A stretch of DNA of 64,000 bases, taken from the NCBI GenBank assembly GCA_964016885.1, contig OZ024745.1, positions 112,592,001-112,656,000 on the forward strand, given 5' to 3'. Of the stretch, positions 15,915 to 36,205 are shown one piece after another. Source of the DNA: Eledone cirrhosa. Lineage: Eukaryota. The notes below the pieces were generated by a model. That model was not told the DNA's origin. It saw nothing but the letters and a program-made list of their open reading frames with translations, and searched no databases. The position numbers were made by a program, and so were the translations under genes. Positions within the stretch are counted from its first letter, which is position 1, and each line of letters begins with the position of its first letter.

Positions 15915-16381
15915 ATAACAATTGGTTTCATGAAGTGTACAACTTTCGTTTTAGCAGTAGAATTTTAAAATCACATTGGTCATTTATAGCTTGTTCCCAG
16001 TTTCACATATAGTTTCACATATTTGTAGTTTGTTGTTAATAAAGAGGTTTTCATGTTTTTGTTTTTGTAGTATATCATTACTGGTAATTTATGGTTGGGT
16101 GTAATGCATTTTGTGATACGATTTATGAGGTTTTCGATTATGTGTTCGTCTGTCCAAATACATACTTTGTATGCATTTGATTCATATAGCATATTTTGTG
16201 TATTCTTAATAGGTGTAGTGTCGGAAGTATGTCTATATTCATAAATGGCTTGGACTATCAGTCTATTTAAATATCCGCTGTTTATTAATGTTTGCTTAAT
16301 TGTATGGATTTCTTCATCTGCTGTTATTTTTATGGAGGAGAATCTAAATGTTCTCTTAACTAGGAATTTTACTACTGACAT
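15915..16381 (-). mobile_element. Penelope-like element remnant (RT thumb/linker region)
   Basis: Peptide SVVKFLVKRTFRFSS...EEIHTIKQTLINSGY...DEHIIENLINR...IYYKNK resembles the region between RT and GIY-YIG in Penelope-like elements. Confidence 0.6.
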
Positions 16382-16989
16382 TTTATATATTTTTATTATT
16401 TACTTCTACTATTTTATTTTGCAAAGCTGATTATACAAACAGAGAAGCACACATGTGAGTTTAATATTAAAGAGGAAAAAGAGAAAAAAGAGAAAAAAGA
16501 GAAAAAAGAGAAAAAAGAGAAAAAAGAGAAAAAAAGGAAATGAAAAGAAGAAAAAGAAAAAAAAGAATTATTAACGGAAGAAAGGGGGAGCGAGAGAGAC
16601 ATATATTACATACTAGTCTGAGCGGTGTTTCAGCTGCGACCCACGGACAAAAAGGTGGGCTGCTGCCGTTCCGATTTTACGGAAGAAATCAGCAGTGCGG
16701 AGCCCAAGGGCACCAAGGGTGATCTCGACGGAGACCGGTACAAAGTGGAGGCGATCGGTTAGGCTTCGGTGTTTAACTATCTTTCTCTCCTCTGCATTGC
16801 AGGTAGCGGAGCGCAGCTTGTTTAGATATTGGTAGTCTCCACGTGTTTATTGTGAGTACAAGGGCGACAAGTATCTGTATTTTTTCCACTTTTGATGTTT
16901 AGATCAAGAAATGAGGTTACATTTTTTTTTTACTCTTCAGCAATGGTCTTGACTGTGTTAATTGGACGACAAGGTCACTTCAGAAACTC

Positions 16990-30905: not shown

Positions 30906-31400
30906 GTATATATATATACATATACATACATATATATATATATAGGCACAGAGACACACACACATATATATATACATACATACATACTGTACATAGTATT
31001 AATTGTAAAATAGAACCAAATGTGTTTTAGACGGCCACTACAATGCAGGCTGGAAATAAAGAAGTGAAAACCACAACAAAAACAGTTGACACTCTTACTA
31101 TCAAAAAACAGCCGTTAACATATTTATCTTATATTTCAATTTATCAGCTATAAAATAGCTTTATCAAGAGAGAAAATCGAGAATGAACTTAGATTTCATT
31201 CGCAGTGAGGTTGGGAGAAGTGGACATTTTGCAGATTATTCATGTTACATTAGCCAAGAAGCGTGCAATAAATGTAGTAGACATTACTACTCATACGTAT
31301 TAAGACGACAATAATAGTGATGATTCTTTCATTAGAAACCAACCAGAGAAATGTGATAACCTGGTCACATTTATAGCCACAGACTGAATATATGAAATTT

Positions 31401-32073
31401 TCTAACCCTAACCCTAACCCTAACACTAACACTAACACTAACACTAACCCTCACCCTAACCCTAACCCTAACCCTAGCACTAACTTTAACTCTAACTCTA
31501 ACCCTTAACCGAATCCTAACCCTAACCCTAATCCTAACACTAACCTTAACTTTAACCCTAATCCTAATCCTAACCCTAACCCTAACCCTAGCACTAACTT
31601 TAACCCTAACTCTGACCCGAACCCTAAACCGAACCCTAACCCTAACCCTATGCCTAACACTAACCTTAACTTTAACCCTAACACTAAACCTAACCCTAAC
31701 CCTAAACCTTCCTAATCCTAACCCTAACCCTAACTTTAACCCTAACCCTAAGACTAAGCCTAAGCCTAACCCTTAACCCTAACCCTAACCCTAATCTTAG
31801 CCATAACCCTAACCATAACCCTAACCCTAACCCTAACCTTAACCCTAACCCTAATCCTAACCCTAACCCTAACTTTAACCCTAACCCTAAGACTAAGCCT
31901 AAGCCTAACCCTTAACCCTAACCCTAACCCTAATCTTAACCCTAACCCTAATCCTAACCCTAACCCTAACTTTAACCCTAACCCTAAGACTAAGCCTAAG
32001 CCTAACCCTTAACCCTAACCCTAACCCTAATCTTAGCCATAACCCTAACCCTAACCCTAACCCTAACCCTAAC
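31401..32073. repeat. Degenerate interstitial telomere-like (CCCTAA)n array
   Basis: About 670 bp of ccctaa and variants, with duplicated higher-order blocks. Confidence 0.92.
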
Positions 32074-32681
32074 GGTTCAATCATTCTTGAGCAGCGTTGA
32101 TTAATTTATATATTTCCATGTCAGATTCTCTTCGCAGAACTTTCTTGGAATCAGCAATAACATTGTCTTAACAGGTAGATAGTCGAAACCAGTTGATTCT
32201 CCATCAACATAGGAACATAATAATAAATGGGGAGAGTGGCAAAGGTATTTATGAGAATCAAATTTTGATCACCAAATTTCATTACGTTTAAAGAGAATAG
32301 TTAACGCCACAGAGGTCTGGGACTTCACGTATTGCAATAGAAAAACAACTTTTCTTCCCACATAGAAGGGTGGATTATAGGAATTGATAGAACGTTGGAT
32401 AAAATGGCATTGGTGCATTTATTCAGGATCTTTACATTCTGAGTTCAAATCCCACCAAGATCAATCTTGCCTTTCACCCTTCCGGGTTCATTAAAATAAA
32501 GTACGAGTCAAATACTGGGGTTGATTTAATCATCTTTGCCCTTTCTCCAAATTTGCAGGCATTGTGCCTAAATTAGAAATCAATATTTATTCCCACATCA
32601 CACAAGAACACTTCACAATTTGATGCAACACTTCAGCTGTAGATTTTGTAACAGAAGTGAACCATAGAAACTGGGATACTA

Positions 32682-32764
<83 letters not shown>

Positions 32765-32769
<5 letters not shown>

Positions 32770-33470
32770 GGAAAAAATGAAATTTCATTTCCCACTCTTA
32801 GTACGGCTGATACTTAAATATAAGTATGTACACGTACATACACATATGTATACAGACGTACAGTAGTATGTATATAGATACATACATGCACACATATATA
32901 TATATATATGTACGTATGGGTTTACCAAACATTTATTATAATGCTCGGTTTGTTTGTAAACAAACAGCCCGAATTATTAGCCGTACAGTGTTCGGCAACC
33001 ATCGTTGCCATTTTGTTCAACACTGACAAAGGAACTGACATACTTATATTTAAGTATCAGCCGTACTAAAAGTGAGAAATGAAATTTCATTTTTTCCATT
33101 TATCGTTTTCGGTACGCCCGGCCGACTAACTCACTCGATATGCAAATTAGGCTGCTCAGCCGTTAATATGCATAAGGAAAGTTAAGGAAAGTATATACTT
33201 TCAAACGTTCAATCCTATGACGGTGCTGATGACAGCTAATAAGCTAGAAACTAGGTCATCGTTCCTTTGTCAGTGTTGAACAAAATGGCCACGGTGGTTG
33301 CCGAACACTGTACGGGTAATAATTCGGGCTGTTTGTTTACAAACAAACCGAGCATTATAATAAATGTTCAGTAAACCCATACGTACATATATATATATAT
33401 GTGTGTGTGTGTGCATGTATGTATATACATACTGATGTACGTCTGTATACATATATGTATGTACGTATAC
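32765..33470. mobile_element. Fold-back unit 1 (A-B-A'-C-B') of a hammerhead-bearing non-coding element
   Basis: A (32765-32829) is inverted at 33038-33102; B (~32829-33035) is inverted at ~33261-33470; the hammerhead-like motif sits at the C/B' junction. Confidence 0.75.
33220..33262 (+). ncRNA. Degenerate minimal type-I hammerhead ribozyme
   Basis: acggtg-CTGATGA-cagct-aata-agcta-GAAA-CTAG-gt-catcgt. Stem I is 6 bp, with the same loop II and CTAG as 35444-35488, but the cleavage-site dinucleotide and the first stem II pair deviate. Confidence 0.6.
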
Positions 33471-33519
33471 ATTTATATACATATATGTATGTACGTATAA
33501 TATATATATAGAGAGAGAG

Positions 33520-34782
33520 AGAATTCACAAGAATCAAAGCTATGTTCAAAGCATTTATTCACTTACAATTCTTTCATCCAAATCTAGGCTTGAGTCTCCA
33601 GACCATTTTTCAATGTTTGTACACATAATTGACCTCCTTTCCACCGCAAGAGACATACAGATACATATGTATATATTGATGTACAGTGGAATGACATATA
33701 TTATACTATATTATTTCTGTATAGCAATTCAAATTCAAAATTAAAATTAAAATTAAAATTAAAATTAAAACAAAATTAAAATACATTCGGCAGTTAACAT
33801 AGATAATGCAAGAGGATAGTTTGTTAGTCAGATGTAGTAGTTAGTGTATGCGTTAGTTACACGTGGGGCATGCACGTGTGTCTCATTCATATATGATTAT
33901 TGTGTGGCAGGGTGTTACATGTAATATAAGCACTTTAAGCGGGTAAGTAAGAGTATTATGGAGGTTGTAGTGGTAAGGTATTTTTTGTATATAATAAAAA
34001 AGTATGTGTGCAGAAAAATAAAAATACAAAGGAGAAGCAAAAGAAAGTTATGCTTTTCGTATCCACCACCATTTTCACATTCTGGAAAAGTAAGATATAG
34101 TTTATACATCCATCACATAAGTAACGATGATTCCGTATTGGATGTTTGATGAATTAAATTATTTTAGCTTATTGCGGCTCAGTGTTATTTAATCCAATTT
34201 TATAGAATAGGTTGATTCTGCTGCGAGAATTTACATCGGTTTATTATCCGGAAGTATGTGTGTAATTTTATTTTTCTGCACACATACTTTTTTATTATAT
34301 ACAAAAAATACCTTACCACTACAACCTCCATAATACTCTTACTTACCCGCTTAAAGTGCTTGTATTACATGTAACACCCTACCCACACAATAATCATATA
34401 TGAATGAGACACACGTGCATGCCCCACGTGTAACTAACGCATACACTAACTACTTCATCTGACTAACAAACTATCCTCTTGCATTATCTATGTTAACTGC
34501 CGAATGTATTTTAATTTTGTTTTAATTTTGTTTTAAATTTAATTTTAATTTTGATTTTGATTTTGAATTTGAATTGCTATACAGAAATAATATAGTATAA
34601 TATATGTCACTCCACTGTACATCAATATATACATATGTATCTGTATGTCTCTTGTGTTGGAAAGGAGGTCAATTATGTGTACAAACATTGAAAAATGCTC
34701 CGGAGACTCCAAGCCTAGGTTTGGATGAAACAATTGTAAGTGAATAAATGCTTTGAACATAGCTTTGATTCTTGTGAATTCT
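33520..34782. repeat. Large inverted repeat, ~505-bp arms and ~240-bp spacer
   Basis: 33520-34023 is the highly similar reverse complement of 34266-34782. Confidence 0.95.
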
Positions 34783-34856
34783 ATATAACTGCTCTGTAGA
34801 ACAACTGATGTTATTACATTGAGCTATTTATCTTACTGGTAATAAGGTAGTAATAA

Positions 34857-34941
34857 ATTACTGACCTTCACTGTTTAGGGTTTAAAATATATATAACTAT
34901 AAAAAGTTTATATAGTATATACATAACCATAAATAGTATCC

Positions 34942-34980
<39 letters not shown>

Positions 34981-35000
34981 TATTTCGTTTCATTTTTTCC

Positions 35001-35072
<72 letters not shown>

Positions 35073-35104
35073 TTATATACATATACATATGTATATATAT
35101 ATAC

Positions 35105-35153
<49 letters not shown>

Positions 35154-35773
35154 TAAGTTAAAGTGTACATCTACATATGTATACGGAAGTATTAGTATGC
35201 ATATAAATACACACATGTATACATATGTACATGTACTCAGCTTTTCACTAGACACTTTACAGTGAGTGTCAGCTAGTCTGTGTGTAACCACACAGGCGGA
35301 CCGGGTTTTAGAGTCATACGAGTTTTCCTAATTTTCATAGAAAAAGCATATACCCACTACTAACACCCACTACTAATTTTCATAGAAAAAGCATATAACG
35401 ATATGTGCTTTTACAATTCTCCAGAGAAGCCGGAAGATGGGTAAATATTGCTGATGAGATGTAATAACATCGAAACTAGTCCAATATTCCTGTCTGGCCC
35501 TCTGGAGAAAAGAGGAAATGTGTTTCCTTGAAAACTCGTATGACTCTAAAACCCGGTCCGCCTGTGTGGTTACACACAGACTAGCTGACACTCACTGTAA
35601 AGTGTCTAGTGAAAAGCTGAGTACATGTACATATGTATACATGTGTGTATTTATATGCATACTAATACTTCCGTATACATATGTAGATGTACACTTTAAC
35701 TTAATTGTTTAAGCGTCAGTCATACAAAAGTGAGTTAGAAGCGAAACGAAATTTAATTTCGTTTCGTTATTTG

Positions 35774-35871
<98 letters not shown>

Positions 35872-35953
35872 GGATACTATTTATGGTTATGTATTTACTA
35901 AAACTTTTTATAGTTATATATATTTTAAACCCTAAACAGTGAAGGTCAGTAAT
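34857..35953. mobile_element. Fold-back unit with nested inverted repeats and a hammerhead in the spacer
   Basis: 34857-34950 vs 35862-35953 and 35148-35327 vs 35531-35708 are inverted pairs; spacer 35328-35530 holds the ribozyme. Confidence 0.8.
35444..35488 (+). ncRNA. Minimal type-I hammerhead ribozyme (complete consensus core)
   Basis: aatattg-CTGATGA-gatgt-aata-acatc-GAAA-CTAG-TC-caatatt: 7-bp stem I, 5-bp stem II starting G-C, palindromic ACTAGT stem III, GUC cleavage after 35481. Stem I extends via tctccagag (35418-35426)/ctctggaga (35500-35508). Confidence 0.88.
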
Positions 35954-36024
35954 ATATATATATAGTATATATATATATAAATTACATTGTTATAGAATAC
36001 CACTCTCATCGAATATCTCTTGAT

Positions 36025-36205
36025 AGTAGTATCGGTAGAAGGTCGTACGCCATGCTTTCCAGCATAGTTATGTCCCTTTACGGTCTGGGTTCAAATCCCG
36101 TCGAGGTTAACTTGGCCTTTCATCCTTACGGGGGTCGATAAAATAAAGTACCAGTAATGTACTGGGTAATTGCTGGCCTTGTGCCAAATGTAGAAACAAT
36201 TATTG
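36025..36205 (+). mobile_element. Major SINE copy
   Basis: Matches the family consensus; B-box ggttcaaatcc. Confidence 0.85.

What the first reader, a model, noticed from the sequence alone, without database searches (positions are those of the whole stretch)
33038..35775. Two sequence-divergent hammerhead units share one ordered multi-hairpin architecture: candidate new structured RNA retroelement family
Seen in the same order in unit 1 and unit 2: (i) upstream hairpin gaaagtatatactttc (33187-33202) vs aaaagcatata-acga-tatgtgctttt (35387-35412); (ii) hammerhead with AATA loop II and CTAG; (iii) AAAA then hairpin ggccac..gttgcc (33287-33302; perfect ggcaac/gttgcc in the inverted copy) vs aggaaa-tgtg-tttcct (35513-35528); (iv) gaacactgta vs gaaaactcgta; (v) tgtttg-ttta-caaaca (33330-33345) vs ctgtgtg-gtta-cacacag (35562-35579); (vi) gagcatt/aatgttc vs gacact/agtgtc; (vii) a TA/CA-rich linker. 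A terminal block ttaag..tcag.c.tac..aaaagtgag plus palindrome follows in unit 2 and in the inverted copy of unit 1. Inference: stems kept while sequence changed point to selection on RNA structure beyond the ribozyme, as in a ~400-450 nt retrozyme-like element perhaps mobilised by a Penelope RT. I cannot tell whether this family is already described.
Basis: partly seen in the sequence, partly recalled or inferred. Interest (0 to 1): 0.8.

Follow-up and report, generated by a model that had tools for sequence, protein, structure and literature searches.

The report
Self-promoting ribozyme repeats moved by Penelope
The two units are damaged or truncated copies of two related, protein-free repeat families (over 3,400 hammerhead-ribozyme motifs in this animal genome) that carry the same upstream motif as the host's U6 genes, likely make self-cutting circular RNA, and are likely pasted into (TA)n runs by Penelope-type retrotransposons, which would make a long-proposed partnership directly testable.

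Summary
Both units belong to abundant, colinear repeat families (monomers 426 and 469 bp, 56-58% identical; 3,408 exact ribozyme-core matches, control 0; one arm holds 50 tandem monomers). The type I hammerhead and hairpins iii, v and vi show compensatory changes. Three corrections. (1) Hairpin (i) holds a TATA box; 43-44 bp upstream lies TATGCAAATTAG, the motif found at -77 to -79 of this genome's U6, U6atac and MRP genes and absent from U1/U2. (2) The 'terminal block' is the one-ended 'tail' of Penelope-like insertions: most insertions are inverted pairs in (TA)n with one tailed and one tail-less end, like a GIY-YIG Penelope-like element lying between the two units. (3) Both window copies are probably dead (unit 1: core mutation, stem deletion; unit 2: promoter motif cut off, one ribozyme). 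Verdict: non-LTR retrozymes, a known class, in a variant with an snRNA-type promoter inside the monomer and Penelope-type insertion scars. No autonomous partner sharing the tail was found; expression, cleavage, circularity and the polymerase are untested. Interest 0.55.

The parts
32764..33037 (-). Insertion 1, inverted arm: family-1 monomer positions 160-426, tailed 3' end running into (TA)n; holds hairpins iii, v, vi, no ribozyme core
   Evidence: (I25)
33038..33499 (+). Insertion 1, main arm (unit 1): monomer 360-426 then 1-371, tail-less 3' end
33050..33103 (+). Family-1 tail (terminal block + palindrome + T6) of the preceding monomer, joined head-to-tail to unit 1
33139..33150 (+). 12-mer identical to the host U6/U6atac/MRP upstream motif (likely PSE); 5' strand of a predicted hairpin
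33187..33202 (+). Hairpin (i) of unit 1, TATA box at 33192-33197; this copy has a 10-bp duplication in the spacer
33207..33281 (+). Type I hammerhead of unit 1, damaged: G at U16.1 (33255), 12 nt missing from stem I, C-A at the base of stem II (family trait)
33287..33369 (+). Hairpins iii, v, vi of unit 1
33378..33499 (+). TA/CA-rich self-complementary linker (vii)
   Evidence: family linker z -3.2
33520..34949 (.). Comparator, not part of the retrozyme: inverted-pair insertion of the 3' UTR of a GIY-YIG-encoding Penelope-like element; left arm tail-less, right arm about 170 nt longer
34983..35004 (+). Short family-1b tail end inside (TA)n
35146..35327 (-). Insertion 2, inverted arm: family-2 monomer 219-400, tail-less 3' end in (TA)n
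   Evidence: (I2)
35328..35364 (+). Inversion junction with short local duplications
   Evidence: (D19)
35365..35775 (+). Insertion 2, main arm (unit 2): family-2 monomer 54-464, starts just 3' of the promoter 12-mer, tailed 3' end in (TA)n; 99% identical to copies genome-wide
35387..35412 (+). Hairpin (i) of unit 2, TATA at 35394-35397; predicted start of transcription near 35424
   Evidence: TATA at -30 in host genes; start inferred
35417..35509 (+). Intact type I hammerhead: core 35451-35481, predicted cleavage after C35481, 1-bp stem III capped by palindromic CUAG, AAUA loop II, GUA bulge in stem I
   Evidence: (HH9, E 2.4e-5, 31.8 bits, below gathering 52)
35513..35606 (+). Hairpins iii, v, vi of unit 2
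35618..35708 (+). TA/CA-rich self-complementary linker (vii)
   Evidence: z -4.9
35709..35775 (+). Family-2 tail: terminal block, 25-nt palindrome 35742-35766, T-rich end
35862..35957 (-). Short second piece of the same Penelope-like element's 3' end

Best explanation
These are copies of two related non-coding repeat families (426 and 469 bp monomers, one type I hammerhead each, in tandem and in inverted pairs inside (TA)n) that are likely non-LTR retrozymes, likely transcribed from an snRNA-type promoter held inside each monomer and likely inserted by the reverse transcriptase and GIY-YIG nuclease of a Neptune-type Penelope-like element. Steps. SHOWN: monomer order is promoter motif - TATA - ribozyme - hairpins iii/v/vi - linker - tail, joined head to tail with no ORF; fixed 3' end; inverted pairs with a tail at one end only; (TA)n target. 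INFERRED: (1) SNAPc/TBP start transcription about 30 nt after the TATA, just ahead of the ribozyme, and run into the next monomer; (2) two ribozymes, probably working as a dimer through the ACUAGU palindrome, cut out a unit-length RNA that carries the next promoter near its 3' end; (3) a host ligase closes it (as shown for other retrozymes); (4) the Penelope-like enzyme nicks (TA)n and primes beside the tail hairpin by AU microhomology, copying past the ribozyme site and round the monomer junction; (5) the other DNA end primes 55-70 nt upstream, giving the inverted, tail-less arm. Which polymerase is open: the 12-mer and TATA are Pol III type-3, but the spacing is 4-5 bp short and monomer release needs read-through of T5-T7 runs; my odds Pol III with leaky stop 45%, Pol II 40%, not a working promoter 15%.
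For: Copy number and arrays. Ribozyme constraint: 9 of 19 pairs changed on both sides, 94.4% of cells paired, score 0.469 vs 0.223+-0.022; N17 is C 59, U 53, A 12, never G in 124 cores with U16.1. Hairpins iii/v/vi within family 2: 5 of 24 pairs two-sided, 96.2% paired. Circular monomers fold at z -8.8 and -11.7. Promoter: 12-mer at -77..-79 with TATA at -30 in 5 of 5 independent host type-3 promoters examined, no match with 3 or fewer mismatches in 8 of 8 U1/U2 promoters; in elements 65 of 74 copies match with at most one mismatch, spacing 43-44 in 65 of 68; control 2 non-element hits in 725,588 bases, neither with a TATA; 0 of 22 other hammerhead loci have it next to the ribozyme. Anatomy: family 2, 17 of 22 insertions are inverted pairs and 14 of the 15 complete ones have one end at 464-469 and one at 395-401; family 1, 17 of 20 inverted pairs likewise; 83 of 97 tailed or tail-less ends abut (TA)n; the same anatomy is given for PLEs in PMC8557442 and is seen for the GIY-YIG element in this window and in L213. 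Template not limited to a cleaved linear piece: 78 of 83 arm starts lie away from the cleavage site, 23 of them upstream of it; 53 of 109 arms cross a head-to-tail junction.
Against: No autonomous element sharing tail or ribozyme was found: two Neptune-type families examined have different 3' ends; a search for the family-2 tail behind foreign sequence gave 25 of 25 inversion junctions or truncations (it samples only about a sixth of possible upstream sequences and was not run for family 1). Promoter spacing differs from all 5 host type-3 genes (43-44 vs 47-49). The 12-mer is also a hairpin strand, so RNA structure could help keep it. Five of 83 arm starts lie within 4 nt of the cleavage site against 1.7 expected, so some templates may be linear; passing the site is also explained by uncut multimeric transcripts. 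Loci were fetched by their ribozyme, which inflates arms that contain one. Shuffle controls ignore relatedness; two-sided changes in family 2 come from 2-3 lineages; the count of two-sided pairs was not above shuffles (184/500). Family 1 has an unpaired 10.1-11.1 (10 of 18 rows); in 10.64898/2026.07.22.740005 only 1 of 9 predicted retrozyme dimers cleaved. Long arrays may have grown by unequal crossing over.
Confidence: 0.78

Rival explanations
1. Linear, SINE-like Pol III transcript: the U6-type promoter makes an RNA that stops in the tail's T run, and this linear RNA, not a circle, is the template for the Penelope-like enzyme; multimers come from template jumps or later recombination.
For: T5 at 463-467 coincides with the 3' end of family 2; promoter motif is Pol III type; slight excess of arm starts at the cleavage site.
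Against: Family-1 ends lie 4-8 nt beyond its T6 run; single-monomer arms start upstream of the predicted start site (monomer positions 12-60 in 7 family-2 arms), which such an RNA would not contain; promoter sequence is copied in every full monomer.
Confidence: 0.2
2. Detached pseudo-LTRs: the units are only the ends of an autonomous Penelope-like element, seen as 5'-truncated copies.
For: Insertion anatomy is that of PLEs; in Xenopus 24 of 57 retrozyme families match annotated TEs, 21 of the 22 being PLEs (10.64898/2026.07.22.740005).
Against: Monomers join head to tail with no ORF in 72 insertions mapped; 35 single-orientation insertions share no unique 5' flank beyond element and other repeat sequence; 25 of 25 tail-plus-foreign hits lack an ORF link; the one GIY-YIG contact (L110) is an insertion into an unrelated PLE copy, absent from 28 other copies; PLE ribozymes here are of a different build.
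Confidence: 0.1
3. DNA-level repeats (MITE-like elements with terminal inverted repeats, or plain satellite) in which hairpins are by-products of palindromic DNA.
For: Long inverted repeats flank each unit; one 24.5-kb array.
Against: The centre of inversion varies from copy to copy and the two ends are unequal; G-U-tolerant, strand-specific covariation and the NUH rule; plus strand folds 16-17 kcal/mol better than minus.
Confidence: 0.03

Closest known systems
Metazoan non-LTR retrozymes (Cervera and de la Pena 2020, PMC7229834; results and discussion read)
   Same: Non-coding 150-450 bp tandem monomers, one canonical type I hammerhead each, low GC, highly self-paired predicted circle, thousands of copies, co-existing PLEs.
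   Different: Slightly longer (426-469 bp); the text read gives no promoter and no inverted, one-tailed insertions; cephalopods not mentioned in the main text (supplement unreadable); circular RNA shown there, untested here.
Newt/axolotl satellite 2 (HHR_Amex1/2)
   Same: 1-bp stem III with palindromic tetraloop, dimer-type cleavage; stem II base mismatch as in Amex2; internal snRNA-type promoter reported for newt (cited in PMC2220036 and PMC6765202, passages read; the original paper was not held).
   Different: Newt promoter is reported as Pol II snRNA type; here the motif matches the host's Pol III type-3 genes and has a TATA; no sequence link tested.
Schistosoma Sm-alpha SINE-like ribozyme repeats
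   Same: Promoter ends up at the 3' end of the cleaved RNA, so tandem copies are needed (PMC6765202 passage); AAUA loop II and GUA bulge (recalled).
   Different: Its Pol III promoter is internal tRNA-like (recalled); here it is an upstream PSE/TATA type.
EN+ Penelope-like elements, Neptune clade; non-autonomous Chlamys such as MRC1 (PMC8557442, passages read)
   Same: Partial tandems, inverted 5'-truncated copy, tail at one end, microsatellite targets, head-to-tail non-autonomous copies.
   Different: No ORF; tail 55-70 nt rather than 30-40; no 3' sequence shared with the two PLE families examined, whereas non-autonomous Chlamys generally share it.
Vertebrate retrozymes as PLE pLTR derivatives (10.64898/2026.07.22.740005, abstract to discussion read)
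   Same: Proposes PLE mobilisation of retrozymes.
   Different: Its evidence is co-occurrence and pLTR homology in vertebrates; here the evidence is insertion anatomy, and pLTR homology was not found.

Membership tests
Non-LTR retrozyme | Type I hammerhead in each monomer | tested here: met
   window unit 1 is a damaged copy
Non-LTR retrozyme | Short tandem monomers, at least two consecutive ribozymes | tested here: met
   13 of 22 family-2 and 6 of 50 family-1 insertions have two or more in one arm; not at the window loci
Non-LTR retrozyme | No ORF, LTR, PBS or PPT | tested here: met
   no protein-like ORF in monomers or arrays; PBS/PPT not searched separately
Non-LTR retrozyme | Self-cleavage in vitro | not testable with these tools
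   predicted from core and covariation only
Non-LTR retrozyme | Expressed as monomeric circular RNA | not testable with these tools
   only in-silico circular folding
Non-LTR retrozyme | Target-site duplication, when present, longer than 4 bp | tested here: inconclusive
   ends lie in (TA)n, where TSDs cannot be read
Penelope-like insertion (product of PLE machinery) | Inverted 5'-truncated arm, partial tandems | tested here: met
Penelope-like insertion (product of PLE machinery) | Tail at one end only | tested here: met
   14 of 15 and 17 of 20; 55-70 nt, longer than the 30-40 reported
Penelope-like insertion (product of PLE machinery) | Microsatellite target | tested here: met
   83 of 97 ends
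Autonomous PLE or its pLTR | RT and GIY-YIG ORF attached, or homology to a PLE end | tested here: not met
   search not exhaustive
Type-3 (U6-like) Pol III promoter | PSE matching host U6/U6atac/MRP | tested here: met
Type-3 (U6-like) Pol III promoter | TATA at the host spacing (47-49 bp from the 12-mer) | tested here: not met
   43-44 bp
Type-3 (U6-like) Pol III promoter | SNAPc/BRF2 binding, Pol III transcription | not testable with these tools
   needs ChIP or inhibitor tests
LTR retrozyme (plants) | Type III hammerhead in LTRs, 4-bp TSD | tested here: not met
   type I topology, tandem monomers
Rfam hammerhead families | Gathering score | tested here: not met
   0 hits at gathering; HH9 31.8 of 52 bits

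The most novel reading that the evidence does not exclude
A retrozyme lineage captured the host's U6/MRP-type promoter, shortened its spacing so that transcription reads through its own T runs, and propagates as a self-cut RNA circle that a Neptune-type Penelope enzyme copies by rolling round it from both ends of a (TA)n break; the 99%-identical family is still moving and its insertions are the first direct footprint of Penelope machinery acting in trans on a retrozyme circle.
Probability: 0.3. Interest if true: 0.78.

Novelty: new variant of a known kind. Interest (0 to 1): 0.55.

Why it matters
What moves animal retrozymes, from what template, and what transcribes them are stated as open in the papers read (PMC7229834 discussion; 10.64898/2026.07.22.740005 discussion). 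Here thousands of copies, a young family at 99% identity, a fixed priming end, a one-ended tail and a candidate promoter defined against the host's own genes give named mutations to test in a 470-nt unit. It would also give a minimal substrate for the unresolved Penelope integration mechanism, show a third way (after newt and schistosome) of carrying a promoter inside a self-cleaving monomer, and supply a cephalopod-type U6 promoter motif useful for guide-RNA expression.

Tried and rejected
Rfam at gathering: 0 hits; E-value mode gave mostly TA-rich miRNA models, chance. Sequencing runs: no RNA holder listed; no reads were laid, so expression and presence in the other organisms listed stay open. 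Metagenome scan with the core pattern: 9 hits, none with the promoter motif or a second ribozyme, not these families. Looser ribozyme pattern: 28 hits, 6 are subfamily 2b, 22 are unrelated dispersed hammerheads. L110 as a link to a GIY-YIG ORF: rejected, an insertion into one PLE copy. Family-1 pieces near 3 of 28 copies of that PLE: separate insertions in neighbouring (TA)n. Hairpin (i) as a covarying stem: rejected. RNAalifold across families recovered stems I, II, v, vi but not iii, because the loop register differs between families. U1/U2 promoters as the source of the 12-mer: rejected. U6atac: only the best of 10 loci has the motif, the rest look like promoter-less retrocopies; three U6 array copies have it displaced by a SINE. 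Pfam confirms the PLE endonuclease only weakly (E 0.0027-0.014, below cut-off); the Atlas gave 0.95-0.96 to GIY-YIG clusters; the RT pieces had no Pfam hit and rest on motifs read by eye. Three look-ups of earlier findings returned nothing. Coats 1994 and Ferbeyre 1998 were not held.

Full report
Setting. The window is G000:C5:112,592,001-112,656,000 of a 3.0-Gb animal genome. It is AT-rich and full of microsatellites; its size and tRNA-derived SINEs suggest an octopod cephalopod, which is recall and was not tested.

Observation. A scan of the 64 kb for hammerhead cores gave five candidates, of which only these two have paired stems. Rfam finds nothing at gathering and one sub-threshold HH9 match on unit 2. 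Unit 2 folds at z -6.2, unit 1 at z -1.9.

Families. Unit 1 has about 2,050 first-look candidates, unit 2 about 1,131; an exact core pattern common to both matches 3,408 places, reversed control 0. Head-to-tail junctions define monomers of 426 and 469 bp. They align end to end (score 339 vs 141+-12) at 56-58% identity over the structured part, so they are homologs. Median identity is 98.9% within 2a, 94.1% within 2b, 92.5% within 1a, 85% between subfamilies. One insertion spans 24.5 kb with 50 monomers in one arm.

Ribozyme. It is a type I hammerhead with a long stem I, GUA bulge, AAUA loop II and a 1-bp stem III capped by CUAG, the build that cleaves as a dimer in salamanders (PMC7229834). 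On 18 copies from five subfamilies 9 of 19 pairs change on both sides and 94.4% of cells pair; that control ignores relatedness and the pair count alone was not above shuffles. Of 125 distinct cores, 124 keep U16.1 and have C, U or A, never G, at position 17. The exception is the window's unit 1, which also lacks 12 nt of stem I. Family 1 has C-A or U-U at the base of stem II. Unit 2 is intact but alone and starts after the promoter 12-mer. Both window copies are therefore probably inactive.

Structure beyond the ribozyme. Region iii-vi beats dinucleotide shuffles in all 18 copies. Stems iii, v and vi are kept with different sequences between families and within family 2 show 5 two-sided pairs of 24, 96.2% paired, from two or three lineages. 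Hairpin (i) shows no real covariation. The linker, the tail palindrome and a further hairpin upstream of (i) also fold; whole monomers as circles give z -8.8 and -11.7 with 68-69% of bases paired.

Promoter. Seeing an octamer-like word in both monomers, I checked the host's own snRNA genes. Two single U6 genes, the U6 array, the best U6atac gene and the RNase MRP gene all carry TATGCAAATTAG or a one-mismatch variant at -77 to -79 and a TATA at -30. Eight U1/U2 promoters lack it and have TCAGT at -56 to -58. Of 74 distinct element copies that reach this part, 49 match exactly, 16 with one mismatch, 3 with two, 6 not at all; the TATA of hairpin (i) follows at 43-44 bp in 65 of 68, against 47-49 in host genes. 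In 725,588 control bases two non-element matches occur, neither with a TATA. The 12-mer is the 5' strand of a hairpin whose 3' strand differs between families while the 12-mer does not, which points to a constraint on sequence. Family 1, not family 2, also has TCAG 26 bp before the TATA, as U1/U2 do. In insects PSE sequence and spacing bear on polymerase choice (PMC1761439, passages). A start 30 nt after the TATA puts a complete ribozyme at the head of the transcript (inference). T5 and T6-7 runs in the tails would stop Pol III, yet family-1 ends lie beyond the run, so read-through is needed; the polymerase is undecided.

Insertion anatomy. Each window unit is half of an inverted pair with 3' ends facing out. 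Among 22 family-2 insertions 17 are such pairs; 14 of the 15 with both ends in view have one end at 464-469 and one at 395-401. Among 50 family-1 pieces 20 are pairs, 17 of them with one tailed and one tail-less end. 83 of 97 such ends abut (TA)n; tailed ends stop at the same TTTAT. This is the arrangement described for Penelope-like elements: partial tandems, an inverted truncated copy, a tail at one end, microsatellite targets (PMC8557442 and its preprint, passages). The 1.4-kb palindrome between the two units is the 3' UTR of a GIY-YIG element with a Neptune-type cysteine linker and has the same anatomy here and in L213. Arm 5' starts are scattered: 5 of 83 within 4 nt of the cleavage site (1.7 expected), 23 upstream of it, and 53 of 109 arms cross a monomer junction (starts at 6 or below were set aside as alignment edges). 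A circular or uncut multimeric template fits; a cleaved linear piece alone does not.

Partner. Not identified. A Neptune-type family with about 1,555 candidates has its own 3' ribozyme, ends in TTT before (TA)n, and shares no tail; the window's PLE shares none either. No ORF or shared unique sequence is joined 5' of monomers.

Comparison and novelty. The class is known (PMC7229834) and a PLE link has been proposed from co-occurrence and pLTR homology in vertebrates (10.64898/2026.07.22.740005). Internal promoters are reported for newt satellite 2 (Pol II snRNA type) and schistosome repeats (Pol III) (PMC2220036, PMC6765202; passages). Searches for cephalopod retrozymes or ribozymes gave only the PLE paper and a count of 235 hammerhead loci in giant squid (PMC6962438, passage); searches for a type-3 promoter in such repeats and for twin-primed PLE insertions gave nothing on point. 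The library lacks most subscription papers, Dfam and Repbase were not available, and two supplements could not be seen.

Verdict. Real feature; new variant of a known kind; best explanation 0.78; interest 0.55; most novel reading 0.3 likely, worth 0.78.

Noticed in passing
window 33520-34949 and 35862-35957; L213-L215: Abundant (about 2,213 candidates, 95% identical) Neptune-type Penelope-like family with a 3' UTR of about 1.9 kb, a tail of about 170 nt and no hammerhead found by pattern; L213 holds a near-full-length inverted pair.
   Followed up: partly
L061, L062, L063, L191, L217 upstream 80 bp: Host Pol III type-3 promoter: TATGCAAAT(T/G)AG at -77..-79 and TATA at -30; U1/U2 promoters instead have TCAGT at -56..-58 and a TATA-like word near -30 (L073-L090).
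   Followed up: yes
L163-L190: Second Neptune-type family (about 1,555 candidates, about 92%) with a long-stem-II hammerhead about 55 nt before its 3' end in (TA)n.
   Followed up: partly
L133-L143, L147, L149-L158: 22 dispersed, diverged hammerheads of another build (short stem I, no promoter motif), probably old PLE ends.
   Followed up: no
L125-L126 (C1:18,485,000-18,494,900): Family-1b copies inserted in a PLE endonuclease region and then caught in a larger inverted duplication.
   Followed up: partly
L067, L071, L072: Some copies in the U6 tandem array have a tRNA-derived SINE inserted between the TATA box and the gene.
   Followed up: no
window 34950-35145, 35776-35980; L235, L240, L243, L249: (TA)n runs collect nested insertions of both retrozyme families and PLE ends.
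   Followed up: partly
window 15980-16399 (-): Fragment resembling the thumb region of a Penelope-like RT (by eye; no Pfam hit).
   Followed up: partly
window 31370-31990: Degenerate 6/12-bp tandem array resembling a telomere-type repeat at an internal site.
   Followed up: no
window 36028-36204, 32426-32587 and about 20 other places: Many copies of a tRNA-derived SINE.
   Followed up: no
L217 upstream: The MRP promoter spacer shares short words with the family-1 spacer beyond the 12-mer; weak, might hint at the donor gene type.
   Followed up: no
L219, L221, L222, L224: Metagenome contigs with a TATA box followed by a similar hammerhead and then an ORF, probably eukaryotic retroelement 5' ends.
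   Followed up: no
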